Of a DNA stretch of 45,707 bases, positions 13,101 to 34,910 are shown piece after piece. The stretch lies in NCBI GenBank assembly GCA_003344405.1, contig NOWV01000120.1, positions 186,001-231,707 on the forward strand, in the 5' to 3' direction. Within the stretch, counting starts at the first letter, position 1, and every line of letters begins with the position of its first letter. The position numbers and the translations under genes are program-made. The notes under the pieces were generated by a model that was not told the DNA's origin, did no database searches, and saw nothing but the letters and a program-made list of their open reading frames with translations. This DNA comes from Trichoplax sp. H2 (lineage: Eukaryota).

Positions 13101-13626
13101 TGATACCATAATGATACTGTCATGTACGCAGTATGATTTTAAGTAGATCTTACAACTGAGGTCTATAGTACGCTATATTGCATCTGAACGTTAGGAACAG
13201 CATCAGTTTAATCAAATGATGTTAGTATAAACATTTCAATGAGGTCCATGGTCTAAATTATAGATCACTTCCTTTGAAATAATTCTGCTGCAGTAGAGCA
13301 GCAAATGAAATCACACATTTATGCTATACTGGTAAAAGGCTCTCGGGCCTACATATTTACTGAGTGACTGTGCCAAGACTCGTATACTTAGTCACTCCTT
13401 CTACGTTCAGTACAGTATGCCACGAATTATTGGCAAAGTGATCACTTTCTCTTTCTGCTGGTTCCATGATTCGATCGCAATACAGTGTACTTTGCCGTAT
13501 TAGATTCTGCAGTGTTCGTACTGTGTTACTATCGAATAATTCCATTAACATCCTGACATGGAATTGACTAAAAAGAGTTTGATTGGCTAGTAACACTTCG
13601 AACCAAGCATAAAAATTACGCCTAGC

Positions 13627-16600
13627 ATGTTTAAACAGTCTATCATTATTACTTTCATTTTTACATTGGTGATATCAATCATTCGTGGAGGTTACTGTGA
13701 AGTTATTAGAAGTAATGCATCTTTCTCAACAATTTATAACTTAATACGTAAGTGATTTAATAACAAGGTAGTCAACGATTTTTATTAATTAATACATGAG
13801 GTGAGGTGAAAAATTTTAGTCACAAGTTGTTCGCATCATAATTACTGTTAATATTACTGCGTTCGCACATTTATTTTTATACCTTAATGATTGAATTTCT
13901 ATAAGGTTTCTCATTTTGATCTATGCTAGTAATAGACATTGAAAAATCGTTACAAACCCTAGCATACTCTTTACTGATACTTGACCACTTTCATATCTTC
14001 AACACACAATTAAAGTACGAATTTTAAAAGGGCTTGCTAGCATTCACAACGTAGCTAACTTATTTCTTAAATTTCAAGTAATTCATTAAACTTACTGAAT
14101 TTAACAACAGTTTTCTTTTTCGATTAAACATCCTTTGTAATTAATTTATTATAATTCGACTGCGCTGAAATATACTATACAGTATTGCACGAATAGTAAA
14201 GCCTAGAAAATTATACCTTGATGAAGTATGTATCTCATTCCATTTTGTATGCATGTTGAGTATTAATGAGCAAGAAGGTTATAAATTTGCTATAAATGCG
14301 ATGGCGCTGTAATGCAATACATGATAACTTTTAACGGGGAATACCGTCATCCTAAAATTAACCAACCAAACCTCAGACTTATAAAATAATGATGAGAAAA
14401 TTATAATAGGCATGATCGCGTAGAATAGCTAACAAATTAATAGCCAAGGTACAAATTCAAAAGACAAAATTTATAAAATTTTAACGGAAAATACTGAAAT
14501 TAATCAACGAAACATCAAACTTATAAATAATGATGAGAAAAGTGCAATAAGTGTAGCCATGTAAGATGATTCAAAAATTGATATGAAATGTACAAATTCA
14601 AAGAGAGTAGATTTATCACCTTGCCGGAGCCAATCAACCAAAAGAAAAAATAAACTATTCTCGATTAATAATAAAAGTAGAGTATTTTATATCTCAAATT
14701 TCTCTAGCTTCTGACTTCTCTACTACTAAACTTCCCAAATTCATCGCCCTTTCCAAAAGAGTTGGCGGTATTATGACTGTAGTTACAGTTTTATACCTCT
14801 CTAAAATAATGCCAATATGTGGTACTACAAATCACCCAAAATTAAGATACCTCGCACCGTATCATTCCCTTTAAATTCAGAGCACAAATCTCGTCATTGA
14901 TAAACTATTATAACGTAGAATAAAATGTTTATTATTATAATAAAAAATATGATTTATTTAGGGCCTCCAATCTCAAGTACGAGTTGCGATTTTGAGAAAT
15001 ATAATTGTCAATGGATTGATCTGGTTGGTATGAGTGCATTTTTTTGGCGTCGAAATCAAACACAAATGCAAACAAGTAAATTTAGTCCAATCGCAGATCA
15101 TACATATCAGAATGGTGAGTCTTTAGGGGCAATGAAATTCCTTTGATTGATTTCTTGGTTACTGATATAATGTTTGCTGATATTATAGTTTCGCCAAGTA
15201 GGCGTAAATGAGATTCCTATCAACCTTTCGAAGTTACAACCAAATTTTTTAAGCATATTCTTTAATTTTAGAGATTATTAAGATATAAGAAATAGCTGTA
15301 CTCGAAACATATTTTTGTGTGAAATACGGTTGATTCATTGATAATAGTAACTTTCATAATAAAAGCTTGTAAAATGTTGCTTGTGGATAAAATCGATAAT
15401 TTATTGAGTTTACTGGATAATAAAAGACTCAATTGAAAGATCGAAATAAATTTCAGAGTGTGACATAATAATTCCCGTACTTTGGTATTTAATAATCCTA
15501 TCCGTTCTTGAAGACAGGGGATTTTTCTTACTTATACAAAATTTGGATTATAAAATATTGGGGGAAGTTGCAGAAATTCTGAGTCCTCCCTTATTTCTAC
15601 CTTTACGTATTAACAATGCTATTGTAAGTACCATATTTTGATACTGGATTTCTTTTGCGACTTGTATCACTGGGTCATAACAAATTTTTACAGCTGCAAT
15701 AACGCTAAAATTTTGCAGTTAAACGTGCTTTTATTCATATCTAAAATCAATAGCAGTAAATGTACTGTAAGCTGTAGTCAATATGTGTTTTTTTATTTGT
15801 CATGATAGTGTAGCAAAGCAATATACATTAAGTAGTATACGCACATTGTTAACTGGATATAACTTACCTTTACTGTTTACTCCAATTTCTGGGTTTTTGC
15901 AGATAAAATTTTATTTTAGCATGTATGGACCAGGGGTAGGCAGCTTGTTAGTTTATGCAATTTACCCTAAATATGATAAAGATATTTCACGTCATCTACT
16001 ATGGGAAAGGACAGGTAGCATCCATGATCGAAATTGGCATAAGAAAACAATTTCTTTTACTCCAAAGTATTGGGAATATCAGGTAGGCTTCTATTATAAG
16101 AGTAGTTAGTAAAATTATTCGATACAATAGATGTTGTAGTGTATTTTTTTTGTTTTGATAGGTTTTTAAAATCGTAGACACATCTGAATATAACTATAAA
16201 TTAATAAAACCATATATATGAATATATGTGTGTTACAAATCTCCTTTGTAACAAGAAACCGGGTCTTAAACACTATCTTCACTAGTACTCGTGTTCCCAA
16301 CTAACTTAGGGGCCTATCGTAGTTGAACTAACTCTCAGATACACAAATAAGCTACTAATGAGTAATAGCTTTAAATAATTCACTTTATTTTCGTTAAACT
16401 TAGTCGTAAATGTACTAAAGAAAAACGCAAGAATATTCTTAGCAATAATAGTCAAAAGATCCTGCAAGTGACTAACTGGAACTGAGCAGCTAAGCTAGTG
16501 CTCGGCTTTTTATAGTCTCGGCCAGCACCGATGGTACACTTGTGAATATTCTTGACATAGCGACTTACACTGTACAGTACAGTATACATATCCTAGTATA

Positions 16601-19600
16601 GCAACTAGAGCCTCAAGGCTCTGCAAAGTAGTCGGTCGACCTTACACTTAAGGTGTTGTTAATTAACATTTACTGACTAAGCGTGTTAGCTCCGACACGT
16701 CAACAATATTGAACCTTGGCAATAACAAGTACTTATTAATAAACATTAATATCTAATAAGCTACTGGAGCAAACAATAATTGAAACGAGATGTTTTAATT
16801 AACATAGCAATTAATATTTCGGAGCATCGCTCCGTAACAGCGTGGTATAGATGACAGCCTTATTAATTTATTTGCAGATTGCAATACGCGGTACCATAGG
16901 TATTTCATTACATAGCAGTATTGGCTTGGACGACCTTATAGTCCATCCTGAAGGTGATGAAAGCATGAATAATATAAATCGTATGCGACTAGATACTGGT
17001 TAAGCATGATTTGCATACTCAAATTAAAATGTTGAAGACATATTCCGTGGACAAGCATGACGTACAATAGCAATTCACTTTATTCAGAAGATTCAGCAAC
17101 TAAACTCAGACTTTGCATATGTAAAATTTAAAATTTCTTCTTGATTTATTTACTAGGATAATGTCGTACGATAGTGTAAAATACGGTGTTGATTTGACTT
17201 TATTGCTGCTTTCGTGAATTTTTTAGTACCAAAATATGAAAATGTGTCATTTAAGATATATAATAGCCGTTATAAGAAATTTATTGAACGTAAGGCTATT
17301 AATTCAGGGATAGACTTAAAGATTTCTTAACTTTGCTTAATAGAGTTACATTGCTTTACTGATCGTGGCCAATATTATAGCGGAACATCATCTTTTACGG
17401 CTAATCGAACAATGTGCAAATATTGGAATGACACCATGATTTACAATAAGTTATTTAAAGAAAGAGAGAATAATGATGAAAGTTTACAAAATAACTATTG
17501 CCGAAATCCTGAACTTTTGCATGCTAGACCATGGTGCTATATCGACAGTTCTACGTTGCAATGGGGTTATTGCAACATTTCTTCTTGCAATAATCCTTCA
17601 AATTTTAATACGATGACTAGTATCAGGAAAGGTATATCATTATTCTCTACCTGGAGATGTATAACTTGCTAATACTATGTAGCGCCTGTATAACAAAATT
17701 TGATGCGAACCTATTACTTTATGCCACGAAGGACGCTATACAGTTTATAAACGATTTATAAGTTTAAGGATGATTCAATATAAATAATTATGAAAGAAAT
17801 AATGTGCGTATATCGTATGTTTATTCTCAAATACTAGGTGGAATGTTGGTTAGATTGATTGAAAGATTTAATTTTGCTCGAGTTGTTGTGTATCATGAAG
17901 GTCAATGGAGAGCTATTTGTAGTGAACTTTTCGACATTCCAGCAGCTTCGGTGATTTGTCGTCAATCAGGTTTACCTACGCCGGGCTATCCACGAGGTAA
18001 GATACAATGCTGATATTTTACCAGCTATAACTGCTTTAACATTGCGAGACTTTATGAAATTAGTTCTACTCCGCCTACAGTATATTATTTTACTTAGGTT
18101 AAATTTTTTCAACCTTATTTCTATTCAGAATTTAATAGCGATATTGGTAGTCCATGCTTACGAAATTTTCGTTGTACCGGATTAGAAGGCAACTTTTCTC
18201 AATGCACAACTTTTGATCGTGACGGAACGCCTTATGAATATTCTCGATATCAAACTGGTGTTATATGTGGAACTGAAAGTAATACATCAGTTTCACTTAA
18301 TTCAGTCTATGTTAAGATTTAATTTGACTCGATGATACTATTGATAAAAAATGCTTGGACATCAGATTAATGGCAGAATTACATTTGTGTACGAAAAGAT
18401 CAGACCGCTAAAAGTAACTTATATTGTTTTATATCTCCAACGGAAAGGGCAGATTATAAATGAAAGATTGAATAATCTGTACTTGTTGCCTCTTTTTAAC
18501 GTAATGCTCACTTACTAATTTTTTATAGAAAAATTCGAAATGGCATATGATTTTTCAGGTAATGATATCTTATGCGCTAATTACTTCCATATCTGATTTA
18601 TATTCAAATTATTATTTGCTAATTCCTAGTTTATCATCATTGATGTTTTAGCCGATTGATATAAATTTATAAAATTAGGAACGTTGAATTTATAAGATTT
18701 TAAGTGAACATACATATGAGCGTATTTAGTAAAACAGCTTTTATATATACCTTCACATCTCGGCAAATATCCAAGTTGTGAAGTAATTTTTTATCATTTT
18801 AATGGCTGATGTAATATTTACTGATATAGAAACCTATGAGGAATAATTCAATGCTAAAAAGTGCTTTTTTATATAACTTAAAATATAGAAGTTCCATTGA
18901 CATCAACTTCTTGCGATTTTGAGTATGGATTTTGTGGCTGGCATCATGTTTTCGGAACCAGCTCCACGATGTGGTACCGTAATAAAATAGAAGGAAAATA
19001 CCATGATTACCAATCTGGTACAATGAAGTCTCAGAATGATGGTAAATCTTTACATATCAGGGACTCGCTTAATATATACCACAATGCACTAAGTTAAATC
19101 AAACAAGTAAATGTTATGCAGTTTATGATGTTGAAAAGGAATATCATAAGTACAAAACACAAGCTCGTTCAAATTATTAATACGATCGATATAGCTGGGA
19201 ATTGTCATATAACTTTCTATCTAGTAAGAATGATAATTAGAAATTTTCGGTTACTATGACAAAACCTTGCTTTAAATCAAAACGCTTGGAGATGGAAAAT
19301 ATTCATCTTTATTTATCCTCGAAGACAGCTGATTTAAAATCGTTTATTTGAGAGAAGTGAAAATTTAAACATTAACTATAGCTTAAAGCTGAATTAATTT
19401 AAGAAAAATGGGGTAAAATTTTCTTTCATAAAATGTTACAATACCAATTTAAGGAAAATTTACTTTATTAACCGGCAATTACGATGACGTAATGAACGAG
19501 TTTTTAACCCTTAAAGGAATTACTGTAGAAATTAAATTAGTGCACTGCACGGGTTTACATTTTGTATTAAAATACAGTAGTACTTTATATTGATGTTAGC

Positions 19601-22384
19601 TACGGACTCTTATGCACATAAACAGTTTATTTTCATGCTATTCTTCGACAGCTGAATTCCTGATTATGATGTTGCAGTACGATATTGAAAATTCATAAAT
19701 TGTTACGTTCTGGATGTAATTAGGGCATGGCTGGCGCTTAATAAATGGCCGGAAAAACACTAGAGATACTAGAGGTTTAGCTGAGATAAGTAGTCCTTCT
19801 ATGATTCTACCTTCAGAAGCACAAGCAGTCTTCGTATGTATCGTCTTAACAGTATTTTTACACTGATGCGATACGGTACTAGTTCTCAGCCTTTGACAAA
19901 AATAATAAACGTAATGAACAGATTTGATTGCAATATATAAATAATTCGATAATTATTTTTATTTATCTTTCTTTAAGTCGCTAATAAACTAAGGATGTTT
20001 CTATTTATACTTCTTACATTAGTTAGAATTTTATCTAAAGAGATTTGGATCTGGAACTCGTACTTTGAGAGTTTTTGTAGTTTATCCGCGATACGATTCT
20101 AGCCTTAGCTATCATTTGCTACTGATTGATGGAACGTTGTACAAGAACTGGTACAAAGTGACTAAAGTCTTTCAACGACAATTTCCGGGTTACCAGGTAC
20201 CGTAAGTTGGATATAAAATAGCTAATGTAGCTGATATAGTATGCCATGGAAAGCGAAGAATAAACTTGTTAGTTCTTCTTATCAAGAATACCTACCTGTA
20301 TTTAATAATTTGTTCGTGCTTACAGATTATTATTCGATCTGAAGATTTCGGAATCGCTATTGATGATATTTTCATATACCCCTTAGGTATAGAAGTATTA
20401 CATCAATGTAACTTTTAAATTCACTCTTATTTAGTATTCTATCGCGAAATATAGACCATTTCAATTAAACATATAGGCGTGTTCCATATAGGAATGTTTC
20501 GATTTAGGGATATTTCATACCTATACAGCAATAAAATTTTTGCTATGATTGTCTTCCTTTATTTAGAGACGAATTGCTATACCGAAGACGGTAGATTTTA
20601 TGCCGGGCAAACATCAGTTGCAATCAATGGTAGTCATTGCATCGATTGGAGGAGCCCAAAAGTCTCAGTAAAACCTAGTGCAAGGATTAATTATGCAAAC
20701 AACTACTGTCGCAATCCTGATGAGGCACATTCAGCGCCTTGGTGCTACACCGACATGGATACTAATCCAAGTTGGGACTATTGCAATATCACGCCATGTT
20801 CAATTCCAGAAAATAATGGTCCTACTTATAATATTAGTTCATGTCAGTTAGATGTTTAAATTTGCTAGTTTGCTTTATGCTTTGCCATCATCAAAATCAC
20901 ACTGTATCGTCATCATGATCGCATTGGTAAATATTATAGTTTCAGATAATATTCCTATCATGTTGATGGGAGGTAACCACGGACGAATAGCTGTATATCG
21001 TAATGGGGTGTGGGGTTCTATTTGTGGCGATTCTCTAACAAGCGCGGATGCAACCGTTATCTGTCGACAGCTGGGCTTGCCGACACCTGGATTAATAACC
21101 TGTAATGGAAATAGACAAATACTTAGTTTAGAATTACTATCCTTATAAACTATTTTTAAAATTAATGAATATTGTTGCAATAAACAATATTTGTTATCAT
21201 TAATTCGTATTGAAAATGAAAAAGAATCCGAAATCGATCGCAAATTAATTTTACAATTTTGCTCTATTGTCATTGTCTTGCCTCGCTTCGCGTAAAGCCT
21301 CCATCAATAATGATACTTACCTAAATTATTAGTTGTAAGAAATATTTTGTAGCAGTAATGATTCAATTAATGTTGTTAATGTTTATAATATTTAAAGCAA
21401 TCGTGGGCGCAATGCTGTAAGCGGTCAAACAGACAGGTCATTTATTCTTATTACGAAGGCATGGTACATAAAATTATAATTAATTTATTCTTAGAGGGGA
21501 TAAATAAATAGTAAAGTTGCAATCTCGAGTAATTTTAATGCAAAATTTAATCTGTGGTATATTTTATTTTAATAGAAATTTTAGTTAGGGATGGAAGCTA
21601 TAGTTATAAAAATAAATTTTTATTAATATCTGATACACTGTACTATAATTGATTTTTTATAATGGAAAACTCTTAATATTTAAAGATTTCATTTATGGCT
21701 CAGGACCTATTCGGATAGACAAAATGTCACGTTATGGATCAGAATCTACTATATCTCAGTGTCCTATATCGTCTTCGGGTATATCAACCTGCAAATTCTT
21801 TAGAAGCGCAGGAGTTATATGCGAAAAACTTAGACCATCAGCACTAAAAAATTTGACATCGTCAAAATCGAATGGAAATGGTATTATAATTTAATAAATT
21901 ATCCGTAATTATGCTTAATACTGTACCTCAGGAATCTATAATCTCACCATAGTTTTTCCTTTTTAGTAAATTTAACGAAGAACCATCGAGAAAATGCAAT
22001 TATGATAACAATTGGATGTATTTTGGCAGCCATCGCTAGCATAACTTTTACTGCAGCGTATTATTTTCGTAGATTTTGGAAACGAAATGCATATCAAAGG
22101 GAAGGTGAGTGTCACTACCCAATGAATGACCTGAAGAAATTATGCTGATCTTATGGATTATTTTAATTTAACATTTGCTTTTAGACTGGTTACTAGTGTT
22201 TATTATTTATACTTTATCACTAAAGTCCATGAAAATTTTACAATCAATATTTCGTATGCAAATATTTCTATAAATGTTGGATTTGATATTAAAACTAAAG
22301 AAATTTCTATTTACAGAACCTGAAGCCTATAGGCAGCAAATGGATAGACGAAATCTAAATAAGGGTTATCCGCCAACATATTAA
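13627..22384 (+). CDS. Type I membrane protein: SP-MAM-Kringle-SRCR-MAM-Kringle-SRCR-TM-cytoplasmic tail ending PPTY
   Basis: 18 phase-consistent exons: 13627-13747 (signal peptide MFKQSIIITFIFTLVISIIRG); MAM1 14962-15114, 15514-15623, 15903-16082, 16878-16953 (SCDFE..C.W, ADHT, IGLDDL); kringle 17344-17631 (NYCRNP..PWCY); SRCR 17838-17996, 18129-18278; linker 18529-18558; MAM2 18889-19041, 19724-19833, 20023-20196, 20326-20386; kringle 20567-20818; SRCR 20946-21101, 21686-21880; TM 21967-22104 (AIMITIGCILAAIASITFTAAYYF-RRFWKR); tail 22317-22384. Confidence 0.88.
14356..14618 (+). repeat. Degenerate ~141-bp tandem duplication in intron 1 of the first receptor gene
   Basis: AATTAA(C/T)CAAC..AAC.TCA.ACTTATAAA..TAATGATGAGAAAA ... 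GTACAAATTCAAA occurs at ~14356 and ~14497. Confidence 0.7.
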
Positions 22385-24816
22385 GCTTCCCATAGATAAG
22401 GTGTAATCGCTAATGCAACTTGTATCCATCCATGATGACAAAAATCGAGCCATTAATATGAAATTTCTAAAGAGGTCCCAGTGGTCAATGTTTTACTATG
22501 TTGATTTCAATATAAGTCTAGGCATTATAATTATTATATTACCCGCCATATAGTCACCATGAAGAAATGATATCATTGCCGTAAATTTGAGTTACACTAT
22601 CATAAGTTTTTCAATCTAAAATTCCGTTATGTCACGTTTATGGGATTATTCGTATTACGGTGGAATAGGTAGGAAATCACATCCGTATATAAAACTTGCT
22701 AATTTAAACTTAGATACAATCAACGAATAAACAAAATAACATGTTAAGTTTATATCTATAGTTTCTATTCCAACATTATTTCATATTTCTTAAATTAGAT
22801 TACCCGTAATTAACGTAGGATATCCTTATCAGCAGTGCTTTGCTGTCTGTATCATTTGCATATCGTTGAGTTCGTATCCACATGGTGGCATAAATTATGC
22901 AGTAAAATTGATTAATATCATAAGTTTCTTGTATAAGTTATGAAAGAATTGGTTCATTGGCATTACTATTAATTAATAGAAGGAAACCGAGAGCATTATG
23001 TAAACGAAATAGAATTTTAATTTACATTGAGGATTATTGTACAGATCCATTTATGCCTAGAAAAGGTTTTGATTTACTGACGTTAATGCAGGTATTTACT
23101 TACATGATTACACTTGTCCTCGTAATGATACTGTATTATGAAGTTCCAAAAAATTTTGGTAATTTAAGTTTGTTGACAAGGAACGGGCATGCTATTTATT
23201 GTAGCCTACACTCAAGTAAGGAATATTATAGAGCTTCTTAAAAACATTAAATATTTCCATCCATTACGGAATCACTGACTCATTTGCGTATAAATAATTT
23301 CTTGTTTTTTCATTTATACTGTATTGATAATTAATGATATACTTGTACTTATAGAATCAATATGTCGATATCTCCGTATTACAGCGTACTTACAATTAAT
23401 TAATTGACTATAAAAGAAATATTTAAATAAAGCGTCACTAAAATTGACGTTCGTTATAGCAATCTGTTGTGGTAAGGTAAAATCTATACTTTTAAAACAA
23501 ACTAATGATGATGAGATTTGTAGTACAATTTGATGGTAGTACACAGTACGAGTATTTTTATCGAGGTGACTTAAGGAAAGTTCCATACAAATATATACAT
23601 GAAGTAATATAATGCTTGGGTTTACAGCCCCTCAGGTTCGCAATCGTCTAACACAAAATCTGAGTTATTAATAAAATTGAGCAAATCTGTAACGCGACAC
23701 AAAATCAGGTAAATACCGTATTTAAACTTAAAAAGTATCGTTTATTAATAGAACGTTAGATAAGAGTTGAATTCACTTTTCTTCCGCCATAATAACAGTC
23801 GAAAGTGGCTAAGATAAACCGGATAATCGACTTGGTCTCCATGACTTAGGACGATTTAATCTTATCTAATATGATATCAGGAGCAGAAAGTCTATGAGAA
23901 CCTACAGCAACGACAGAATTTATCATTTACTGTTCACCAGATATCCTTAACTGATCGTGAACTAATATGATATTTACAGTCTGTTTCAATTAGCCTTTAA
24001 GCTTTCCTCCAATGCTACTACGGATAACTATTCTTGCTGATACATCAGTATTGTATACTTTGTATCGTCGATTTAAAGTATCATACTGGCCCAATTAACA
24101 GTGCTACAAGTAAAGGAAAATTTGCCTAATTCTTTAATAAGTGGAAGAAACCTTGCTTCTTATTTCATTTTAATTGTTAAAAGCTATTTAGTATTACCTT
24201 GGTTTGTTTATGTATTGATACGTGCTATAGCATTTTATACAGTATTATAGTTGTAGAATAGCTGAAAATCAGTTGGTACAATAGTATAACATGTAAACTA
24301 AATTCATCGCGTTATATTTTTGGTGGTACCTGATACTGCAAGGTAGCAAATAACCCACGTGATAGTTTTTCTACCAGTAAAATTACAACTTTCCAATTGG
24401 TTGCCAATGCAACCGAATCAAGGCGTAACAAACTAATATAGAAATTATATCTCTTTTATCAGTGACTACAATAATATTTTCATAATATATCAACATTTTA
24501 TTATCGTTGTTACAGTATAAAAGTAGAGGCGAAAGTAAGCTATCAAGTTCGTTAGAAGAATTGTATTCTGGTCTAGCTACAGAATATTAGTCCATGGTGC
24601 GTAACTGAAGGGTTAATTTAAACTCTATTACTGACAGCTATCTTTGGAAATGATTGATGAATGAGCAAATTGGTGATATTACACTATACCTTAGCCTAGT
24701 ATAATTGATAATATTAGCCTTAATCAACCCTAATATAATAAAGGCTATAGTCTATTAGTCAGAACATTACTTTGGGTTGTCATTATCATCACTAAGAACG
24801 TTTAACGGCATCAAAT

Positions 24817-27800
24817 ATGATGTCAACTCACCTTAGATCTTTCATTTTAAATTGCCTGCTTTGCATCATTATTACCCTCTATTTGGATGAAAATTGCTTA
24901 TGCAGTGCGTCGAAATTGGGCTCTCCGATGCAATGTTTGTCCGGTTGTCAATGTCTTGATAAAAATGTGGCCATTTGTTCATCTCTACCCGAAAATTTCG
25001 ATAAAGAGCATCGTAACATAAAGAAAATGTAAGTTACAAGTCTAAATTTGACAATTTAATTTCATCCATTTATAGCTGAAGATAATATATAGCATGTCCA
25101 TTTACAATTCAATGCAGTATTTTAGATCATTAAATGGATGATATCGTTATGAAATAAATGCATTAATTAAGGCCGCCTGCAGAATCTTGCTTGATAATAT
25201 CAGTTATCTATCATTGTTATTTCCTTGACTATATTGTTTTTAGGCTTAACTTAACTTTTTAAATGTTTTTTAATATTAGTATTCTAATAAGACCAAATTG
25301 TAACTGCCAATTTGCAAGATGGTATCGTTGGATCAAATGGAAGGAAATTGATGTTGAAGGCGCTTGTTATCAACCTTCACAATTTTTGAATATTCCAGTT
25401 CAATCAATCCATCTTGAAGCACTTATTTGCCCTCAAGGTTACTATTATGAGCGAATTGTTAGATGTTTAGCTATTGTACTACTGCAAACTCGTGGACATG
25501 ATAGTTAGGTTTACATTTATTAATGCAGTAACTAGGTTAAAAATTTCATTGAATATGTTTTCATGCCACATTAACTTGCGACTTAAGGCGCTTCGTAGCA
25601 TTAAGAACCTGAAAATATTGCTATATCAAAAGCCGTGAATTGTACAATTAAATAGAATTACATCGGTAATTATAATAGATAGTCCAGAGCGTTATTGTTT
25701 TCATGTAAAGTTATCACCTAACATAACGGACAGTACCAGTAAGTGTCTTGCACCTTTTATGATATGTTATTACAAAATTTAAGAACTGTTACGGTAGTTA
25801 TCGCAAGACTACCGTAATCAAATTGCTAATCATTAAATGCATTACATGTGAACGATTGAAAAATAAAGTTCATTACAGTAGTTTATTATAATTATAAGCA
25901 CTTTAGATATTTTATCTGGCATGATTGAACCTGAATTCAGTACTTTCTTCAAATCATTTTAACCTTCTTATTCTTGTTGATTGTGCGTCTAATCGTTTTA
26001 TTTTTGAATATCGTAAACTATTACTATGAATAAGGAGGAAAAAGTGAAATATTCAGAAATAGAATTGTTCGTAGCACTGGCAGCCAACTTCCACCTTATC
26101 AATTTTCTAGTAAGTTTGCAGCATTTTTCCAACACATATCGAGTTAATATAGCACACTGCAACAATTTGGGATAATACTATCCGTAAAATACTCTACCTG
26201 ATATAGCGTACCCAGTCGATGCTATAGGCTGTGACTTTCAGAAAGGTCTATGTGGTTTTCGACAAATTAGAAATGCAGATTCAATCGATTGGGATTTAAA
26301 AAGCGGACCGACAACATATTCGATGGTAACCGGCCCTTTGTCCGATCATACATATGGGACAGGTACTATATTAACATCACATGCTATTAAGATGCTATAA
26401 TATTAGAGATTACCGATATTACTATTCTTGCTAGCCTACAGATTTATCTTATTAAAATTAATTATACTCGCACTGTAATATGAAGAAATTATTATTCAAT
26501 GCAATAATTTAAATAGACTAAAAATTAATTCATTGAAACAATCCATAGTACAATATTCATATTAAGATACTTAAATTAATATGCGAAAATTCTATCAATT
26601 TCAGCTACAGGAAAATATCTTTATATGAATTCTTTACCAAATCCTCAAAATAGTGTTGCTGAAATTATTAGTCCGCCGTTAATCATAGCCGATCAGGTCA
26701 AAACTGTTAATGTAAGTAATATATATAAAATTAAATGGCAAACCCGTTCAATAAATTCATTAGTGATACTACTACTGAAACGGAAGGAAATATAGAATAG
26801 ACCATCGACATTTAAATATAAAATAGACTAAACCAATAGAGCAATTACGAAGCAATTCCATTTTTTGTATTGCCTTATTTTTGTGACTATACCAGCTTTT
26901 ATTGAGATTTCAATCCATTTAAGTTTGTTAATTGCGGTTTATTCTCCATCAGATTATCTTCTATTATCAGCTATATGGACGCGATATCGGTGGTATTAGG
27001 CTTTATGCAATATATTCGAAATATAGCCTAACAAAGTATCAAATCTGGGAACGAAAATATAATAGAGGCCCTTACTGGAGAAAAGCTGATATTATGTTTA
27101 ATCCACAATACCCAGAATATCAGGTTTGTGTGTTAATGTAAATGAATATCCCCTCATTTCTATTTTACAATTATCGTTATACGTATTTGAATTCGCTATC
27201 ATAAAATTAATGTTAATTCTTTCAATTATTGAATGGGATGGTCACAGATTATTTTTCAAGCAATAGACGGAGGAACCTATAGCGATATTGCAATCGACGA
27301 CATTTACATTTCTCCATTTGGTACTCAATAAAATCTTACTTTTGTTGGGTTAATGTATATCATATAGTGTATAACGATAACTAAAATGTATTACAAAATA
27401 TCTTCTCTCGTAGAAGAAGATTGTTATAGCGGCAGCAACTATGGAATATATTACAGGGGTACAACCAGCACAACACAAGCGGGAATAATATGCCAGTCAT
27501 GGTTTACAGTATTTCCACATCAATCTAACTTTTCATCGACTTTTGAAAATCAATTGGAAGTTAATTACTGCCGTAATCCAGGAGGTAGTAAATCGAAGCC
27601 TTGGTGTTACACGATTAATGCCTCAATCCAATGGCAATATTGCGATCTTTCGCAATGTCCACCTCGGTTACCAATTAAACCGACATCATTGCCAGGCGAT
27701 TCGAAATGTAAGCGATCTTATGTCAGGCCTATAAGTGTACGGTTAAAGAAGTTGCTAAGTATAAATAGAAATCCTTAAATCCAGCTAGCATTTTTCTAGC

Positions 27801-30800
27801 AATAGATCTTCCTAGATAAATAATTTTGGTTGATATATAATTACAATATCATCTAATATTTTCGTGTATAATTATTTTCATCGTGTACAAATTTAGTTTC
27901 AATGTAGTACGATGCTATCAATTAAATTAATTGACAAATTTGCATAGAATACAGCCTAAACTATACTGTCTATTTCTTTTACGACCTAAACGTGTAACTA
28001 AGGAAAAGGGTAGATTCTCTGCGAAAATTTTACATTTCATTATAATTAGAGATATTGCATAGGATAATTTTCTGTTATTTTATTTCACCAACCTTAAAAA
28101 TTTTTTAATGCAAATGAAATGGTTTAGTTGCTAGCACGTTACCTATATCAATTGGCCCTAATGGGTTACTTGCTTTCTTTCGTGGCTCGGTATGGGGCAC
28201 TATTTGTATAAATAGTGATTGGGGATATACAGTCTCGACTGTAATCTGTAAACAGAAAGGCATTTCTATATCTGGTATAACAAAAGGTAAGCTTATCTTA
28301 TATTATAACATTAGTGCAGAAAGTAATATTTAAACGCTGTATTAATATACTAAGAATGCGTCATGATAAGGAGGTACAAATGCAGATACTTAAATGCAGA
28401 TTGATTTAATATGAACTTATTATCATAATTTTAATCTAGCTATAAAACTGAATAAAGCTTACGAAGGAGATCCATCTTGGTATTATCCTATTGAATGCAC
28501 TGGGCTAGAAGATTCTCTAGAACAGTGCAAGAGTAACGTTAGCGATGCTAAGGGTTTAGTAAGCTGTGACGATAACTACGCGATAGGAGTCGACTGTCTT
28601 CAACCTACCACAGGTACAATAAAAATTGATTACTATCCTGTATATAGTTAATCCATCTAGGAACAATGTTATCCGGAATTCTTGTTTGGCTCTAAATAAT
28701 GTGATCATATGATTTGTTTAAGGCTGGCCAACCCATGATCCTATCGAATATTATTCTGTCTTGGCTGGGGGGAAATCGTTACGTGAAGGCTACTTACAAG
28801 TATATTCTGGTTCAAGCAATTCTTTCACTACAGTCTGCTCAACTTTGAATAATTCTCTTCCACTCGATATTCCTGACGTTATGTGCAGGGAGCAAGGATT
28901 TCTCTATGCTTTATCAACTGAAGGTAAATTGTATTTACACCTTTGCAATAAATACCTACAGTATATTATTTTTAAGAAGTTATTATTAATCTTTTCATTA
29001 TACCGGAATATATTATTTAAACACAATTTATTAAATTGTTAATTTTTTCAATTTTATCGATTCAATATATTTATATAACATGTGCTGAAATGACAGCCGA
29101 ATTAATTGAGTTAGTCATTTGGCCACGAAAGTCTTGGATTTATGACCTTCGTTGTACTGGCTACGAACATAAGATCTATCGTTGCCAGCAAATGAAATAC
29201 GATAACGTGGATTTGGGACCGAAATGCGAGAGAAGGAACAAGTTGATAACTGCAAAATGCAAAGCTGACGGTATTTTCTTTTAAGTCTGGCTGTGATTTT
29301 TAAGCCTTTATTCGAAAATGTATGAAGTTGTAGCATAATAGGATAATAAGATAATCTCACAATATAAGATAGCTTTGCAAGGATTCCTGTATATTGTTCA
29401 GAGTAATTCCATTTTACATTGTTTGAGAATATTCAGTAGCTTTAAGTCAGCTATACGAGTGGATAAAGCTATAAAATTTTAATTTAAAAAAAATTGAAGT
29501 CACCTAAATATAATTATCTTATTACATTTAATAGAGAGTGATTTAAATACCCTTGACCCAAGCTGTGATTTTGAAAAAGGATTTTGTGGATGGAACTATA
29601 AACATCGGATTCCTTTTACTAATCTTGCCTATTGGGTGTATAAAGATGATAGCGAGGGACATTATCAACCAATTCCTGATTTAGCAGGTTTATAGACTAC
29701 TTGATGGATTATTGGCTACTTTTTAAAATTTTAAATAGCGATTTAAGATTATACCATGACAGTATTTCCAAAATGAATTTTGTTAACCGAATCCGTGCTT
29801 TTATCGAATAATTAGGTAATTTCGTTTATACCATTCAAGGTCCATTTTGGACTTCTGGTAGTTCGGCAGCATTAGCTAGTCCATTACTACAAATAGCTAA
29901 CGATGCCAATTTGGTTGCTTCCGTAAGTATCTTAAATTCGATATATCGAACCTCGAACTACGATGTGAAATTTTATTATTGATGCAACTTTTAGAGTTTA
30001 ATCATAAAAAGTTAAGTTATATGGATAAACTTGTAAGATTTTGAGACTATAATCTTTAATTAAATGGACATAAAACTATGCTCTAGCCTATTTCTACATT
30101 ATTAAATTTTAATATATTAGCACATTTGAACAAAAATCAAAATGTGGTTAGGGTTATCTTGCTTTACTATAGCATATAACTGTAACATTAGTTGCGAATA
30201 GAATTTTTATTAGAGATGTAGATTGGTTTACATCTATAATAAGGTAAAAGGATAAGTTTTCATAAAAAATGTTTAAACGTCGTCTTGCAGATATCTTTCA
30301 AGTATTATGTTTATGGAAGAAATTTTCAAAAGATTGAAGTATTAATTAAAAATGGCAGTCAAGAAGGAGCCAGTACTAAAACATTATGGAGCCAAGAGCT
30401 GACAGTTCAGCAGATTCCTGGCTGGATACCACAAACTTTACCATTGCAGTCCTCAACAGATTTTTCGGTTTGTATCTTGATTAAATAACTCAATGTATCA
30501 GACTTACTGAATCTGAAAGCAGGTTATCAACTATATTTCATTTTTAAAAATTTTAAAAGATTTTAATAGTGGCGTACTCAAAATATATCGATTATAACCC
30601 AAACCCGACACCACCATTAAGCGCTATTGCTCTGGATGATATTAAATTCACAAATATAATTAAAAGTATGTATCCTATATATTCAACTAGTTAATTTTCG
30701 ATAACGCAAGCTTACCTCAAATTTACATCCATCTTTATCTATATTTTCTAATATTGCAAGTAAATAGCTATAAAGGATTATAAATTTCTCAAGATATATT

Positions 30801-30966
30801 TAATTTTTTATCCAGAAATTATCCAGAAAATGATAGAACTGACCCCATCCCTATAATTTTGGTGACGTTGGGACTTCTTACTATTATCGTAGCTTTATTC
30901 GTAATAGTAGGCTATGTCTCGAAAAAGGAAACGAAGAGATCTGTGGTGGTTACAAATGATAAATAA
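24817..30966 (+). CDS. Type I membrane protein: SP-LRRNT-LRRCT-MAM-Kringle-SRCR-SRCR-MAM-TM-short tail
   Basis: 17 exons: 24817-25028 (signal peptide, CLSGCQC..VAICSSLP); 25280-25437 (PNCNC..W..W..CYQP..LICP); linker 26035-26109; MAM 26207-26362, 26605-26711, 26953-27123, 27248-27320 (TGPLSDHT, SDIAIDDI); kringle 27414-27707; SRCR 28128-28286, 28440-28613; SRCR 28723-28923, 29097-29270; MAM 29535-29687, 29816-29922, 30291-30467, 30560-30665; TM exon 30827-30966 (IPIILVTLGLLTIIVALFVIVGYV-SKK). Confidence 0.88.
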
Positions 30967-33502
30967 TAAAATTGTGTACGTAAGTATAATACATCAATTT
31001 TTCTTCAATAATGCAATAACTGCAGAGAATAAAGCAAGGTTTCAATAATGCTGGTTATGTAATAATACTGTAATTGTGACGTTAAGTCGTATCGATACTG
31101 ATAACTTACCATGTTCCTACACTTGTTGGTATTTTATTTAGTATTTAATTTTAAGTACTGAATAGTACAGTTTTTCTTAGAAAATTGAGAAATACGTTTA
31201 GCCAAAGCGGAAAATAGTTCATTTTTATCGAGTGTCGGACAACAGTTTTTGTTGGATGTGTCGTGGTGAAAATGCAGCTAATTCATCATTTTTGTATTGG
31301 CTCGTTATCATTTAGCAATTGTTTACTGCAGTGCAAATCGATTCCTAGGCCAAATGAAATGTTAGAATGGCTATTTTCATGTAGATTTATCACCAATAGT
31401 GTAGTTATTTCTATATAAATCATTCATTCGTAATAAACGAAAAATGATCTTCTTTAGGCTACTGTAACGCTTAGATAATACCCGCTACTTAGAAGATCAA
31501 TGGATGCGAATTTTTGAAATCGTTTCTCTTATGTGTTTTAATTACATAGCAAAAAATCATAAAGATTGATTACATTCATTTCGATGGAAAATAAGAGAAC
31601 TAAAAGATTGTAGTAATAGAACAGTTATGTATTATATTCTACTTCGTCAAATAAATACAAGCAGATCCTTAAATCTAATTTTAGGTATCAGTCTGCCTTT
31701 AATCAGTTTGCTCACTTGTTTCTTATCCTTTAGATTGGTTCTCAATTTTATGGGGAGCCTATGGAAATTATGCAGGAATTTATCCCAACAACTCAATTTC
31801 TTTGCTGATTTAATTAGTGGAATAATTTTAAGCCAGAAATACAATGTTGAATTTCATATGCTATTTGTATAAAATTTATTATAATATCAAACAGAATAAT
31901 TATTGCTATGTCTTGATTTCAATATTTTTCCAGCCAGTATCAAATGCTGCTGCATCCATTGAAAATTGCTTTGATGCAATACTCTACAGTCTGTCCTTGT
32001 AAAGGAATATATGATTCAACATTGGTTACTGATGGCAGATTATCATCGCTTCTTGTGCTCTTGTTCTCTTGTTTTATGCCGCATTGATAACAAGTCAAAT
32101 CACTTTTAGTTATCTTTGCGTGTTTATTCAATGCATATCTAGAAATAGCGCGTGGATGAATCGATATTAATAGATGATTATCATAATACTTACAATTCAT
32201 CGATATGACGATATTCATACTGTACTTATGATGTCGACATTTTCTAATGCTTAATATGTAATTACTTGCTTGCACATTGCAAAATAAAATCAGATATTGA
32301 ATTAAAGATATATTGAACTTCGATAATATAGGAAATTGAAAAATTTTTGTTGCATATCTTTGCATTCATCGGCGATTTTATTTTAAAATCGATCCAGCAT
32401 AACCCTAACTCAACTTAGTATAGAACAGTACCGTCATTCAAACTGCATATGCTTAGTAAAGGCATAGTACAGGCGTATATTGGATGAGGAACTTTTCGCT
32501 TGTCGAATGCAATGTTAACTTATCGTTATTGATATTCTTACTTTTCGTGAAAGTGCTGTATATGCACTCTATTACAGTTTATTCCATTGCTAAAGCGGTC
32601 AAGTGGAAGTATTCGCGACATCCTTGCATGATTGTGTTCAGTAGATGATAATAATGTTACATCAATCGATTATCATGCTGATGATGTAATCCTGTAATCT
32701 GTCACCATTGACTACATAGGAGTTGAAAATCGACTAGGGTAAATATTGTGCAGAAGCAAATCTGAAAGGAACTAAAGTTTTTCTCTTTCATATACCTGGT
32801 CGTACAACACGCAACAATTAGCTGACTACTAAATACTGCTGTCAAATACTTTAATATCTGTGGCATATTCGATTAGCAATCATGAGATGAAGATGTTCTT
32901 GCCACTTCAACACAATATCTAGAATATTCAGCATCAAGATAGTTCGCAGAATTGCAGTAGCATTCTTTACAGCATGAATAGTAACACTATTACTGATGTA
33001 GTGAACTGCAAACTGTGTCCTTGTAGCTGGCACTTCAAGGTCAACCCAAAACCCGGCTTGAACCTGACTCGAGGGCAGGATTCGGATTAAGAATTTTTGT
33101 GGTAATAAAGTGTTTGTATGGCAATTGTTTTCATTTCGGGTTCGAAAATGAATAATTTGATCGGGTTTTATTGGGTTCGAGTTACATTTTCACTCCGTTC
33201 AACCACTTTACTGTGCAGTAGTGCCTAGGACTACAAGAGTACAGTACTACAGCACAGGAAATGCGAAGAGAGCAATTCCAGAGACTGTTCAACTCTCCTC
33301 TACAACCCAAAATAATGTACTGTAATCAAGTCATGCTAAAGCCACCGTCCCCCCATTTTCCCTTGGAAAATCCATGGTGTCTGTCAGTATATTGCAAAAG
33401 ATATAAAAGATATTTCCCGATACTTGTAATGATACTTTGCAAAGTATGAAGTACAATCCATGCCTTGTGAAAGGAGAAAATTTTCTCTTACAAGTTCTCG
33501 GT

Positions 33503-34910
33503 ATTGAAATGCCACTAACCTAATAAATACGTAGGCCTCAAAATGAGTCCACTTTCCTGTCCTGAGGTATGCACAGTAGTTTGAAATGCCCCTAAGTTAA
33601 ATAGGTGGGCCTCAAAATGAGTCCACTTTCCTATCCAGAGGTATGTAGGTTGAAATGTCCTAACCTAATAAATACGTGGGCCTCAGAATGAGTCCACTTT
33701 CCTATCCCAGTGGTATGTAGTTTGAAATGCCCCTAAGTTAAATATGTGGGCCTCAAAATGAGTCCACTTTCCTATGCAGAGGTATGCCCAGTAGTTTAAA
33801 ATGCCCCTAATAACCTAATAAATATGTAGGACTCAAAATGAGTCCACTTTCCTATCCAGAGGTATGTCCAGTAGTTTAAAATGGCCCTAACCTAATAAAT
33901 ATGTAGGACTTAAAATGAGTCTACTTTCCTATCCAGAGGTATGTCCAGTAGTTTAAAATGCCCCTAATAACCTAATAAATATGTAGGACTCAAAATGAGT
34001 CCACTTTCCTATCCAGAGGTATGTCCAGTAGTTTAAAATGCCCCTAATAGCCTAATAAATATGTAGGACTCAAAATGAGTCCACTTTCCTATCCAGAGGT
34101 ATGTCCAGTAGTTTGAAATGGCCCTAACCTAATAAAAATGTAGTACTCAAAATGAGTCCAATTTGCTATCTAGAGGTATGTAGTTTGAAAAGCCTGTAAG
34201 TTAAATATGTGGGCCTCAAAATGAGTCCACTTTCCTATCCAGAGGTATGTAGTTTGAAATGCCTCTAAGTTAAATATGTGGGCCTCAAAATGAGTCCACT
34301 TTCCTATCCAGAGGTATGTAGTTTGAAATGCCTGTAAGTTAAATATGTGGGCCTCAAAATGAGTCTACTTTCCTATCCAGAGGTATGTCCAGTAGTTTGA
34401 AATGCCCCTAACCTAATAAATATGTAGGACTCAAAATGAGTCCACTTTCCTATCCAGAGGTATGTCCATTAGTTTGAAATGCCCCTAATAACCTAATTAA
34501 TATGTAGGACTCAAAATGAGTCCACTTTCCTATCCAGAGGTATGTCCAGTAGTTTAAAATGCCCCTAATAACCTAATAAATATGTAGGACTCAAAATGAG
34601 TCCACTTTCCTATCCAGAGGTATGTAGTTTGAAATGCCTGTAAGTTAAATATGTGGGCCTCAAAATGAGTCCACTTTCCTATCCAGAGGTATGTAGTTTG
34701 AAATGCCTGTAAGTTAAATATGTGGGCTTCAAAATGAGTCCACTTTCCTATCCAAAGGTATGTAGTTTGAAATGCCTCTAAGTTAAATATATGGGCCTCA
34801 AAATGAGTCCACTTTCCTATCCAGAGGTATGTAGTTTGAAATGCCTCTAAGTTAAATATGTACTGTAGGCCTCAAAATGAGTCCACTTTCCTATCCAAAG
34901 GTATGTAGTT
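33503..34910. repeat. Minisatellite, 19 units, mostly 69, 77 or 80 bp, two sequence variants
   Basis: Core CTCAAAATGAGTCCACTTTCCTATCCAGAGGTATG counted 19 times. Linker A (69-bp unit) is TAGTTTGAAATGCC..TAAGTTAAATATGTGGGC; linker B (77/80-bp unit) is TCCAGTAGTTT.AAATG.CCC(TAA)TAACCTAATAAATATGTAGGA. Confidence 0.97.

What the first reader, a model, noticed from the sequence alone, without database searches (positions are those of the whole stretch)
13627..30966. Tandem pair of protease-less MAM-Kringle-SRCR membrane receptors: candidate undescribed receptor family
Seen: two adjacent same-strand genes, each with signal peptide, MAM, kringle and SRCR modules, one TM helix and a short tail, and no catalytic domain. 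They share idiosyncratic MAM sequence (VYAIYPKY..LWER..W..F.PKY.EYQI vs LYAIYSKY..IWER..W..FNPQYPEYQI), so they are paralogues. Established: kringle+SRCR is the neurotrypsin (PRSS12) arrangement, which has a trypsin domain; MAM+SRCR occur in enteropeptidase; membrane kringles occur in ROR and Kremen. I know no characterised family with these exact architectures. Inference: a lineage-specific adhesion, scavenger or microbe-recognition receptor pair, possibly co-expressed.
Basis: partly seen in the sequence, partly recalled or inferred. Interest (0 to 1): 0.8.

Follow-up and report, generated by a model that had tools for sequence, protein, structure and literature searches.

The report
Placozoan MAM-kringle-SRCR membrane protein pair
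Two neighbouring Trichoplax genes encode related single-pass surface proteins built from MAM, kringle and SRCR modules with no enzyme part; they are real, but already annotated and belong to a catalogued placozoan scavenger-receptor-like expansion whose function is untested.

Summary
Window 13627-22148 and 24817-30966 (+ strand) are two multi-exon genes for type I membrane proteins. Neither has a protease or kinase domain.

- **Gene 2:** its structure is fixed by spliced RNA contigs from three studies. It encodes 878 aa: signal peptide, a small LRR-cap-like Cys-rich module, MAM, kringle, SRCR, SRCR, MAM, TM and a 14-aa tail.
- **Gene 1:** modelled from paralogy and GT-AG sites, with one junction seen in RNA. 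It encodes 830-849 aa: signal peptide, (MAM-kringle-SRCR) twice, TM and a short tail.
- **Relationship:** the two genes share exon sizes and intron phases and are 22-38% identical per domain, so they are old paralogues.

The "undescribed family" reading is only partly right. Gene 2 is NCBI TRIADDRAFT_51917 of Trichoplax adhaerens, an uncharacterised protein. Kamm et al. 2019 list 21 transmembrane "SRCR + MAM or Kringle" putative scavenger receptors in Trichoplax sp. H2. Najle et al. 2023 print this architecture, place both genes in placozoan orthogroups and put gene 2 in a peptidergic-cell module. A Hoilungia model fuses both genes.

Function is untested. The most likely role is a non-catalytic ligand-binding or adhesive surface receptor. 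Interest is low to moderate.

The parts
13627..13747 (+). Gene 1 exon 1: ATG and signal peptide. The donor is at 13690 or 13747, both phase 1; which is used is unresolved.
   Evidence: Hydrophobic N-terminus. An in-frame stop lies upstream of the ATG.
14962..16953 (+). Gene 1 MAM-1, four exons: 14962-15114, 15514-15623, 15903-16082, 16878-16953.
   Evidence: tblastn with gene 2, GT-AG sites with phases 1/0/0/1, and Pfam MAM 20.7 bits on exon c.
17344..17631 (+). Gene 1 kringle-1, a single phase 1-1 exon with 6 Cys.
   Evidence: Pfam Kringle 70.7 bits; splice sites.
17838..18278 (+). Gene 1 SRCR-1, two exons: 17838-17996 and 18129-18278; 6 Cys.
   Evidence: Pfam SRCR halves, profile 10-42 (29.8 bits) and 60-99 (15.9 bits).
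18889..20386 (+). Gene 1 MAM-2, four exons: 18889-19041, 19724-19833, 20023-20196, 20326-20386.
   Evidence: Paralogy only: tblastn E 3.9e-4 and 24-30% identity to the other MAMs. No Pfam hit on any of the 4 exons.
20567..20842 (+). Gene 1 kringle-2, a single exon with 6 Cys.
   Evidence: Pfam Kringle 66.5 bits. The donor at 20842 is confirmed by a loose end in run X8 whose 12 letters occur only at 20831-20842.
20940..21880 (+). Gene 1 SRCR-2, two exons: 20940-21101 and 21686-21880; only 5 Cys.
   Evidence: Pfam SRCR 42.2 and 20.4 bits. The acceptor at 20940 is seen in an X8 contig.
21967..22148 (+). Gene 1 last coding exon: TM helix, tail of about 26 aa, stop at 22146-22148. A strong unused-or-alternative donor lies at 22104.
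   Evidence: Hydropathy and splice candidates. No RNA evidence for this exon.
24570..25028 (+). Gene 2 exon 1: 5'UTR, ATG at 24817, signal peptide, LRRNT-like Cys cluster.
   Evidence: RNA contigs X9 record 18 and X8 record 15 start at 24570 and 24585. An in-frame stop lies upstream of the ATG. Model.
25280..25437 (+). Gene 2 exon 2: LRRCT-like cap.
   Evidence: Joint 25028>25280 seen in 3 runs. PDB phmmer matches the C-terminal cap of Slit2 D4, 2v70_A, E 0.0052. Pfam gives nothing.
26035..26109 (+). Gene 2 exon 3: a 25-aa linker that is absent from the public model.
   Evidence: Joints seen in 3 runs; comparison with P0154.
26207..27320 (+). Gene 2 MAM-1, four exons: 26207-26362, 26605-26711, 26953-27123, 27248-27320.
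   Evidence: Joints in 3 runs. Pfam MAM on exons a, c and d, collinear with the profile. Full-length MAM 130.8 bits.
27414..27707 (+). Gene 2 kringle, a single exon with 6 Cys.
   Evidence: Pfam Kringle 78.9 bits; 100% identical to P0154.
28128..28613 (+). Gene 2 SRCR-1, two exons: 28128-28286 and 28440-28613; 6 Cys.
   Evidence: Joints; Pfam SRCR halves 19.6 and 22.5 bits.
28723..29270 (+). Gene 2 SRCR-2, two exons: 28723-28923 and 29097-29270; 6 Cys, divergent.
   Evidence: Joints. Weak Pfam SRCR halves, E 0.11 and 0.014. Two SRCR stretches are found in P0154.
29535..30665 (+). Gene 2 MAM-2, four exons: 29535-29687, 29816-29922, 30291-30467, 30560-30665.
   Evidence: Joints. Two MAM stretches in P0154. 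Exon-level Pfam E 0.19 and 0.018.
30827..30975 (+). Gene 2 last coding exon: TM helix, 14-aa tail, stop at 30964-30966, donor at 30975.
   Evidence: Joint 30665>30827, hydropathy, model.
31734..32275 (+). Gene 2 3'UTR exon. AATAAA is at 32283.
   Evidence: The X9 loose end at 30975 equals the first 12 letters at 31734, with GT..AG. An X14 contig continues into 31734-31934. AATAAA.

Best explanation
These are two separately transcribed, tandem, anciently duplicated genes of the placozoan Trichoplax. Gene 2 is TRIADDRAFT_51917. Gene 1 is probably TRIADDRAFT_51918.

Each encodes a type I single-pass surface glycoprotein. Its ectodomain is assembled from one exon-shuffled cassette: MAM in 4 exons, kringle in 1 and SRCR in 2, with every cassette border in phase 1. 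Neither protein has a catalytic or signalling domain, and both have a short tail.

They belong to the placozoan-specific expansion of transmembrane SRCR proteins already catalogued as putative scavenger receptors.

Most likely mechanism (inferred, about 45%): the ectodomain captures extracellular ligands such as microbial or prey surfaces, glycoproteins or debris. It may self-associate through MAM. The outcome (uptake, adhesion or signalling) would depend on partner proteins, because the tail carries no recognisable motif.

Gene 2 appears to be used in one secretory (peptidergic) cell programme in Trichoplax.
For: Shown
- **Gene 2 structure:** 15 of 15 listed joints are GT..AG, and two more were resolved by hand. 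The joints are shared by runs X8, X9 and X14, which come from three studies. The ORF is 878 aa.
- **Gene 1 structure:** a 16-exon ORF is open with canonical sites and the same exon sizes and phases. One junction, 20842>20940, is seen in X8.
- **Domains:**. All 11 and all 5 N-glycosylation sequons lie before the TM segment.
- **SRCR type:** 3 of 4 SRCR domains have 6 Cys, which is group A by the definition in PMC10855680 (passages read).
- **Independent genes:** gene 1 has a TM helix followed by a stop, and gene 2 has an in-frame stop upstream of its own ATG and signal peptide.
- **Identity:** P0154 is 100% identical over the kringle exon and shows 6 substitutions overall.

From papers
- Kamm 2019 (PMC6321704; passages and Dataset S3A read): 45 SRCR transmembrane proteins in Trichoplax sp. 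H2. [quoted passage not shown]
- Najle 2023 (PMC10580291; parts of Tables S3 and S4 read): orthogroups OG_4126 and OG_4127. Tadh_TriadG51917 has module membership 0.613 and TrispH2_007547 has 0.511, both in modules annotated peptidergic_lambda.

Closest solved MAM
- A "Scavenger receptor SR-C-like protein", 8yt7_A, E 2e-20.
Against: - No binding, localisation or knock-down data exist. Function is inferred from domain types alone.
- The H2 tags that Najle's orthogroups give for these two genes (007545, 007547) are not in Kamm's 21-gene list.
- The Hoilungia orthologue model sits in a dorsal-epithelium module, not a peptidergic one.
- A peptidergic-cell programme fits a cell-specific co-receptor or adhesion role as well as it fits scavenging.
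- The tails show no endocytic motif that I could recognise.
- As recalled, not tested: the acidic pair of the classical kringle lysine-binding site is not kept in any of the three kringles.
- The gene 1 model is mostly unverified by RNA.
Confidence: 0.72

Rival explanations
1. One gene, not two: the locus makes a single long receptor with 11 extracellular domains. Splicing would run from the end of gene 1 SRCR-2 (donor 21880, phase 1) to a phase-1 acceptor of gene 2 (26035 or 26207), skipping the gene 1 TM exon.
For: [quoted passage not shown]
- All cassette borders are phase 1, so such a join stays in frame.
Against: - Gene 2 contigs from two studies begin at 24570 and 24585, with a 5'UTR, an in-frame stop, an ATG and a signal peptide.
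- Gene 1 has its own TM exon and stop.
- T. adhaerens, Trichoplax sp. H2 and Cladtertia H23 annotations keep separate models in two orthogroups.
- Fused gene models of tandem paralogues are a common prediction artefact (general knowledge).
Confidence: 0.08
2. Gene 1 is a decaying or nearly silent copy, and only gene 2 is functional.
For: - SRCR-2 has 5 Cys and has lost the Cys of the conserved C-T-G motif.
- MAM-2 gets no Pfam hit on any of its 4 exons.
- The presumed orthologues are in no co-expression module in Table S3.
- Repeat fragments lie in two of its introns.
Against: - The frame stays open through 16 exons with canonical splice sites.
- A spliced contig exists.
- The orthogroup is kept in three placozoan genera, and all six domains are kept in the Hoilungia model.
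Confidence: 0.12
3. Not a scavenger or immune receptor. Instead a cell-type-specific adhesion molecule or co-receptor of peptidergic secretory cells, working like Kremen (a kringle ectodomain with a short tail that recruits a signalling partner) or like MAM adhesion proteins.
For: - Gene 2 and its H2 orthologue are in modules annotated peptidergic_lambda in two species.
- The tail has no signalling domain.
- The N-terminal LRR-cap-like module resembles the Slit and chondroadherin caps.
- MAM of MDGA1 and kringle of ROR2 are among the PDB matches.
Against: - Module membership is moderate (0.51-0.61).
- The Hoilungia model is in a dorsal-epithelium module.
- WSC and CUB of Kremen are absent.
- 7 of 11 listed exonic differences in gene 2 are non-synonymous, which looks more like a fast-evolving recognition protein. 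The sample is small, and 57 further differences were not shown.
Confidence: 0.3

Closest known systems
Placozoan transmembrane SRCR proteins "+MAM or Kringle" (putative scavenger receptors; Kamm et al. 2019, BMC Genomics 20:5, Dataset S3A)
   Same: Same phylum. SRCR plus MAM and/or kringle plus one TM region, with no enzyme domain. Several listed members have neighbouring locus tags.
   Different: The H2 tags given for these two genes by Najle's orthogroups (TrispH2_007545, 007547) are not among the 21 listed; TrispH2_007546 is listed under "SRCR only". The exact domain order of the listed members was not visible to me, because Fig. 2 is an image.
Neurotrypsin / PRSS12 (kringle, SRCR repeats, trypsin domain)
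   Same: Kringle followed by SRCR. Automatic names in Najle's tables include serine_protease_12 for the Hoilungia model.
   Different: There is no trypsin domain. These proteins are membrane-anchored and have MAM domains. The relation is through shared mobile modules only.
Enteropeptidase / TMPRSS15 heavy chain
   Same: MAM and SRCR occur in one protein. The MAM matches the enteropeptidase heavy chain in PDB (8h3s_A, E 3e-16).
   Different: Enteropeptidase is a type II protein with SEA, LDLa, CUB and a protease domain (domain list partly from the Pfam strings, partly recalled). None of these is present here.
Kremen1/2 and ROR1/2 (membrane kringle receptors)
   Same: Type I membrane proteins with an extracellular kringle. 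ROR2 kringle is a PDB match (7me4_A, E 1.6e-20). Kremen also lacks a catalytic domain (recalled; PMC3927612 passages mention kringle, WSC and CUB).
   Different: No WSC or CUB as in Kremen, and no Ig, Fz or kinase as in ROR.
Class C scavenger receptor (SR-C / SR-C-like)
   Same: Type I membrane scavenger receptor with a MAM domain. It is the best solved match to MAM-1 (8yt7_A, E 2e-20).
   Different: The CCP and somatomedin B modules of insect SR-CI (recalled) are not found here, and SR-C has no kringle or SRCR.
P0054, an unnamed 1158-aa protein from the representative library
   Same: The only protein among the 109 scanned that has MAM, kringle and SRCR together without a trypsin domain.
   Different: Its architecture is ShK, C-type lectin x3, CUB, MAM, kringle x3, SRCR, with no hydrophobic C-terminus. 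Its source organism is unknown.

Membership tests
Placozoan TM SRCR "+MAM or Kringle" putative scavenger receptors (Kamm 2019) | SRCR domain (IPR001190) present | tested here: met
   Pfam SRCR 66.5 bits with two stretches in P0154. Gene 1 SRCR exons score 29.8 and 42.2 bits.
Placozoan TM SRCR "+MAM or Kringle" putative scavenger receptors (Kamm 2019) | MAM or kringle domain present | tested here: met
   MAM 130.8 bits and kringle 74.2 bits in P0154. Gene 1 kringles score 70.7 and 66.5 bits.
Placozoan TM SRCR "+MAM or Kringle" putative scavenger receptors (Kamm 2019) | Predicted TM region (TMHMM or Phobius in the paper) | tested here: met
   Kyte-Doolittle 19-residue windows give 2.21 (gene 1, residues 799-821) and 3.22 (gene 2, 837-866). 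TMHMM and Phobius themselves were not available.
Placozoan TM SRCR "+MAM or Kringle" putative scavenger receptors (Kamm 2019) | Scavenger activity (ligand uptake) | not testable with these tools
   No experiment exists for any member. The paper itself calls them putative.
Neurotrypsin (PRSS12) | C-terminal trypsin-like serine protease domain | tested here: not met
   No PF00089 hit in 32 exon pieces, in P0154 or in 23 flanking ORFs. The gene 2 stop lies before its last intron.
Enteropeptidase (TMPRSS15) | N-terminal signal anchor with SEA, LDLa, CUB and a protease domain | tested here: not met
   None of these families was found. The TM segment is C-terminal.
Kremen | Kringle followed by WSC and CUB | tested here: not met
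   No WSC or CUB hit.
ROR / MuSK receptor tyrosine kinases | Intracellular kinase domain | tested here: not met
   Tails are 14 aa and about 26 aa, with no kinase hit.
Group A SRCR superfamily | Six conserved cysteines per SRCR domain (definition in PMC10855680) | tested here: met
   3 of 4 SRCR domains have 6 Cys; gene 1 SRCR-2 has 5.
LRR proteins with N- and C-terminal caps | LRRNT and LRRCT cysteine caps flanking LRR repeats | tested here: inconclusive
   All 4 PDB matches of the 86-aa N-terminal module are C-terminal caps of LRR proteins, the best being Slit2 D4 at E 0.0052. Pfam finds no LRRNT, LRRCT or LRR, and at most one repeat fits between the caps.

The most novel reading that the evidence does not exclude
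The conserved tandem pair is a dedicated surface recognition system of one peptidergic (neuron-like) secretory cell type in a nerveless animal. Because every cassette border is in phase 1, the locus could also produce read-through or fused isoforms, such as the 11-domain form modelled in Hoilungia. That would give combinatorial ectodomains from two genes.
Probability: 0.1. Interest if true: 0.55.

Novelty: already known. Interest (0 to 1): 0.22.

Why it matters
Placozoans have a very simple body plan but a large set of mosaic surface proteins. Nobody knows what these SRCR, MAM and kringle receptors bind.

What this work adds is a corrected, RNA-supported model of one annotated gene. The public model lacks the signal peptide and uses an unsupported exon. 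It also adds the cassette and phase structure shared by the pair, and the link to published expression and orthology tables.

That gives clean constructs for a first functional test of the class. It does not reveal a new kind of system.

Tried and rejected
Searches that gave nothing or could not run
- **Genome-wide paralogue count:** no genome is held for this window.
- **Cluster members of P0154 and P0054:** the database was switched off, so their accessions and the organism of P0054 stay unknown.
- **Word-index search with the gene 1 kringle-2 ORF:** 0 of 54 candidates scored, so I could not fetch the public gene 1 model. Its identification as TRIADDRAFT_51918 rests on the orthogroup table only.
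- **ESM Atlas:** it holds P0154 letter for letter but gave no usable neighbour.
- **Rfam on the whole window:** no match.
- **Paper search for TRIADDRAFT_51917:** 0 papers. Searches for MAM domain + kringle + SRCR + transmembrane, and for kringle + SRCR + MAM + sponge, gave only general surveys.

Searches with limited power
- **Representative search with the gene 2 kringle exon:** the top 150 are ranked by summed score, so multi-kringle proteins dominate. I Pfam-scanned 109 of the 150; 40 were left out for economy and P0055 is too long. All three domains occurred in 1 protein (P0054). MAM plus kringle occurred in 4 (P0030, P0044, P0054, P0074). SRCR plus kringle occurred in 5 (P0039, P0054, P0061, P0092, P0144).
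- **My quick local phmmer screen:** it missed several of these, so it is not used for counts.

RNA contigs
- Most gene 1 exons have no cover in the four runs laid.
- No listed contig bridges gene 1 and gene 2.
- Both are absences in contig data, and 6 joints and 146 pieces were not shown. They are not evidence.
- Run X5 has pieces that run through introns, so it holds DNA or unspliced RNA.

Not attempted
- Structure and complex prediction. The domains are already identified by sequence, and I make no specific binding claim.

Full report
**What the window is.** It is AT-rich (GC 0.30-0.39 per 2 kb), intron-rich eukaryotic DNA. No whole genome is held for it. The kringle exon of the second gene is 100% identical to the NCBI protein [quoted passage not shown] (P0154, 836 aa). 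Outside one differently modelled stretch, the window-encoded protein differs from P0154 at 6 residues. The window therefore comes from Trichoplax adhaerens or a very close placozoan lineage. Flanking genes are an aminomethyltransferase on the + strand (36129-38123; GCV_T 62-64 bits) and a cytochrome P450 on the - strand (40435-43257; 63-66 bits).

**Gene 2 (24570-32275, + strand).**
- I laid four coded RNA-type runs on 12500-32499. Contigs of 2908 nt (X8) and 2874 nt (X9), plus shorter X14 contigs, cover the gene in spliced form. X14 is on record as RNA.
- All 15 listed joints have GT..AG ends once the stated offsets are applied. I resolved two more by hand: 29270>29535, and 30975>31734. In the second case the X9 loose end equals the first 12 letters at 31734.
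- Joining the 18 exons gives one ORF of 878 aa, from ATG 24817 to the stop at 30964-30966. An in-frame stop lies just upstream of the ATG.
- The last intron lies in the 3'UTR, 9 nt after the stop, so the protein cannot continue into a further domain. AATAAA sits at 32283, just past the contig ends.
- The domain order is: signal peptide, Cys-rich module, 25-aa linker, MAM, kringle, SRCR, SRCR, MAM, TM, then a 14-aa tail.
- Pfam on P0154 passes all curated cut-offs: MAM x2 130.8 bits, kringle 74.2, SRCR x2 66.5. Exon-level hits are collinear with the profiles.
- The Cys-rich N-terminal module has no Pfam match. All 4 of its PDB matches are C-terminal caps of LRR proteins: Slit2 D4 2v70_A at E 0.0052, Slit 1w8a, and chondroadherin twice. 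I read it as a minimal LRRNT/LRRCT-like cap, at low confidence.
- The public model lacks the first 37 residues, including the signal peptide. It also uses a different third exon, which no RNA contig supports.

**Gene 1 (13627-22148, + strand).**
- I modelled it from tblastn with gene 2 and from GT-AG sites that keep the phases seen in gene 2.
- Sixteen exons give an open frame of 830 or 849 aa, depending on the first donor.
- The kringles score 70.7 and 66.5 bits, and the SRCR first halves 29.8 and 42.2 bits.
- The second MAM has no Pfam hit on any of its 4 exons. It rests on paralogy: 24-30% identity, the conserved start motif around the two Cys, and the I-A-I-D-D end motif.
- The only RNA support is one junction. 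An X8 piece begins at 20940 with 12 loose letters that occur once in the window, at 20831-20842. That is exactly the end of the predicted kringle-2 exon.
- A strong donor at 22104 (AAG|GTGAGT) could give a different tail and is untested.

**Relationship of the two genes.**
- Both use the same cassette. MAM is in four exons of about 153/107-110/171-180/61-106 nt with intron phases 1-0-0-1. Kringle is in one phase 1-1 exon. SRCR is in two exons of about 159-201 and 150-195 nt with phases 1-1-1.
- Per-domain identities are 22-33% for MAM, 33-38% for kringle and 24-35% for SRCR.
- Three of the four SRCR domains have six cysteines, which is group A as defined in PMC10855680 (passages read). Gene 1 SRCR-2 has five.
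- All N-glycosylation sequons lie before the TM segment: 11 in gene 1 and 5 in gene 2.

**No catalytic part.** No trypsin, kinase or other enzyme family was found in 32 exon pieces or in P0154. The same holds for 23 ORFs between and around the genes on both strands; 0 of 23 reached a curated cut-off.

**What is already in print.**
- *Kamm et al. 2019* (PMC6321704; abstract, passages and Dataset S3A read). They report 82 putative scavenger receptors in Trichoplax sp. H2, of which 45 have SRCR domains. They find more than 20 partner domains, with most combinations restricted to the phylum. Dataset S3A has a column "SRCR +MAM or Kringle" with 21 locus tags, all with a predicted TM region and several with neighbouring numbers. 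The figure with the architectures and the PDF supplements could not be read.
- *Najle et al. 2023* (PMC10580291; passages and parts of Tables S3 and S4 read).
  - Tadh_TriadG51917 is listed with architecture MAM/Kringle/SRCR/MAM, in module Tadh.darkred with membership 0.613.
  - TrH2_TrispH2_007547 is listed with MAM/Kringle/SRCR/SRCR/MAM, in TrH2.midnightblue with membership 0.511.
  - Both modules belong to multi-species module gc006, annotated peptidergic_lambda.
  - Orthogroup OG_4126 holds these two genes plus Hhon_g07641.t1 and HoiH23_PlH23_011230.
  - OG_4127 holds TrispH2_007545, TriadG51918 and PlH23_002320. I take these to be gene 1, from the adjacent numbering and the kringle- or SRCR-type automatic names. 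I could not fetch the sequence to check.
  - These three are in no module.
  - The Hoilungia model has the 11-domain string that equals gene 1 followed by gene 2, and it lies in a dorsal-epithelium module. The tandem arrangement therefore predates the Trichoplax-Hoilungia split. The Hoilungia model is either a prediction fusion or a real long form.
- A full-text search for TRIADDRAFT_51917 found no paper.

**Relatives elsewhere.**
- A full-length search returned 21 proteins among 7256 candidates. Only P0154 itself carries SRCR, MAM and kringle together. The others share MAM alone (MALRD1-like, apical endosomal glycoprotein, enteropeptidase) or kringle alone.
- A profile-free search with the kringle exon found 5945 proteins at E up to 0.001. 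Of the best 150 I Pfam-scanned 109.
  - One has all three domains (P0054), in a quite different secreted-looking architecture.
  - Four have MAM and kringle, two of them with astacin.
  - Five have SRCR and kringle, one of them a neurotrypsin-like protease.
- The resemblance to neurotrypsin, enteropeptidase, Kremen and ROR is through shared mobile modules only. PMC3927612 (passages read) calls this relation epaktology.
- The best solved match to MAM-1 is an SR-C-like scavenger receptor (8yt7_A, E 2e-20). The best kringle matches are plasminogen, HGF, apolipoprotein(a) and ROR2.

**How it probably works (inference).**
- A glycosylated, disulfide-rich ectodomain of binding modules is held on the membrane by one helix.
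- The tail is too short for signalling and has no motif I recognise.
- This points to ligand capture, adhesion or co-receptor function through partners.
- I favour ligand capture of the scavenger type, at about 45%. My reasons are the class expansion, the SR-C-like MAM, and the fact that 7 of the 11 listed exonic differences in gene 2 change the amino acid. That sample is small, and 57 further differences were not shown.
- A cell-type-specific adhesion or co-receptor role in peptidergic cells (about 30%) fits the module data equally well.
- As recalled and not tested: the acidic pair of the classical kringle lysine-binding pocket is not kept in any of the three kringles. If gene 1 really ends at 22148, its last four residues fit a K-K-x-x pattern.

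**Verdict.**
- The paralogy and the lack of a protease are supported.
- The claim of an undescribed family is not supported. The genes are annotated, the class is catalogued, and the architecture is printed in a public table. No member has been studied functionally.

Noticed in passing
window 2608-5767 and 5788-8900, with a run of 20 N at 5768-5787: A direct duplication of about 3.1 kb at 91-98% identity abuts an assembly gap. It duplicates a 68-aa ORF (5505-5711 and 8559-8765). This may be a haplotype or assembly duplication rather than a real tandem repeat.
   Followed up: partly
window 33504-34917: A minisatellite of 69-80-nt units, about 16 or more copies. Its reverse strand gives long repetitive ORFs that are not genes.
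   Followed up: partly
window 16231-16840 and 19937-19962 (two introns of gene 1): Fragments of a dispersed repeat. Contig depth is very high in all four runs, with loose ends on both sides, and three runs carry a contig that joins 16391 to 19937 with 9 other letters between. Rfam finds nothing there.
   Followed up: partly
window 24817-24927 and 25639-25700 versus 26035-26109: The public model TRIADDRAFT_51917 starts at an internal Met, so it has no signal peptide. It also uses an exon near 25639 that no RNA contig supports. RNA supports exon 26035-26109 instead.
   Followed up: yes
window 30976-31733: Gene 2 has an intron in its 3'UTR that begins 9 nt after the stop codon.
   Followed up: yes
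window 22104: A near-consensus donor (AAG|GTGAGT, phase 1) lies inside the gene 1 tail-coding exon. If used, the tail would differ from the modelled one, which ends in a K-K-x-x-like pattern.
   Followed up: no
window 8559-9921 (+), 36129-38123 (+), 40435-43257 (-): Neighbouring genes. The aminomethyltransferase (GCV_T) and the cytochrome P450 are confirmed by Pfam. The upstream ORFs look enoyl-CoA hydratase/isomerase-like by eye but gave no Pfam hit.
   Followed up: partly
window 24919-30857 (gene 2 coding exons): Of the 11 listed differences between the RNA contigs and the window in the gene 2 CDS, 7 change the amino acid. Four of the seven (at 25335, 28212, 29151, 30417) give the residue found in the public T. 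adhaerens protein.
   Followed up: partly
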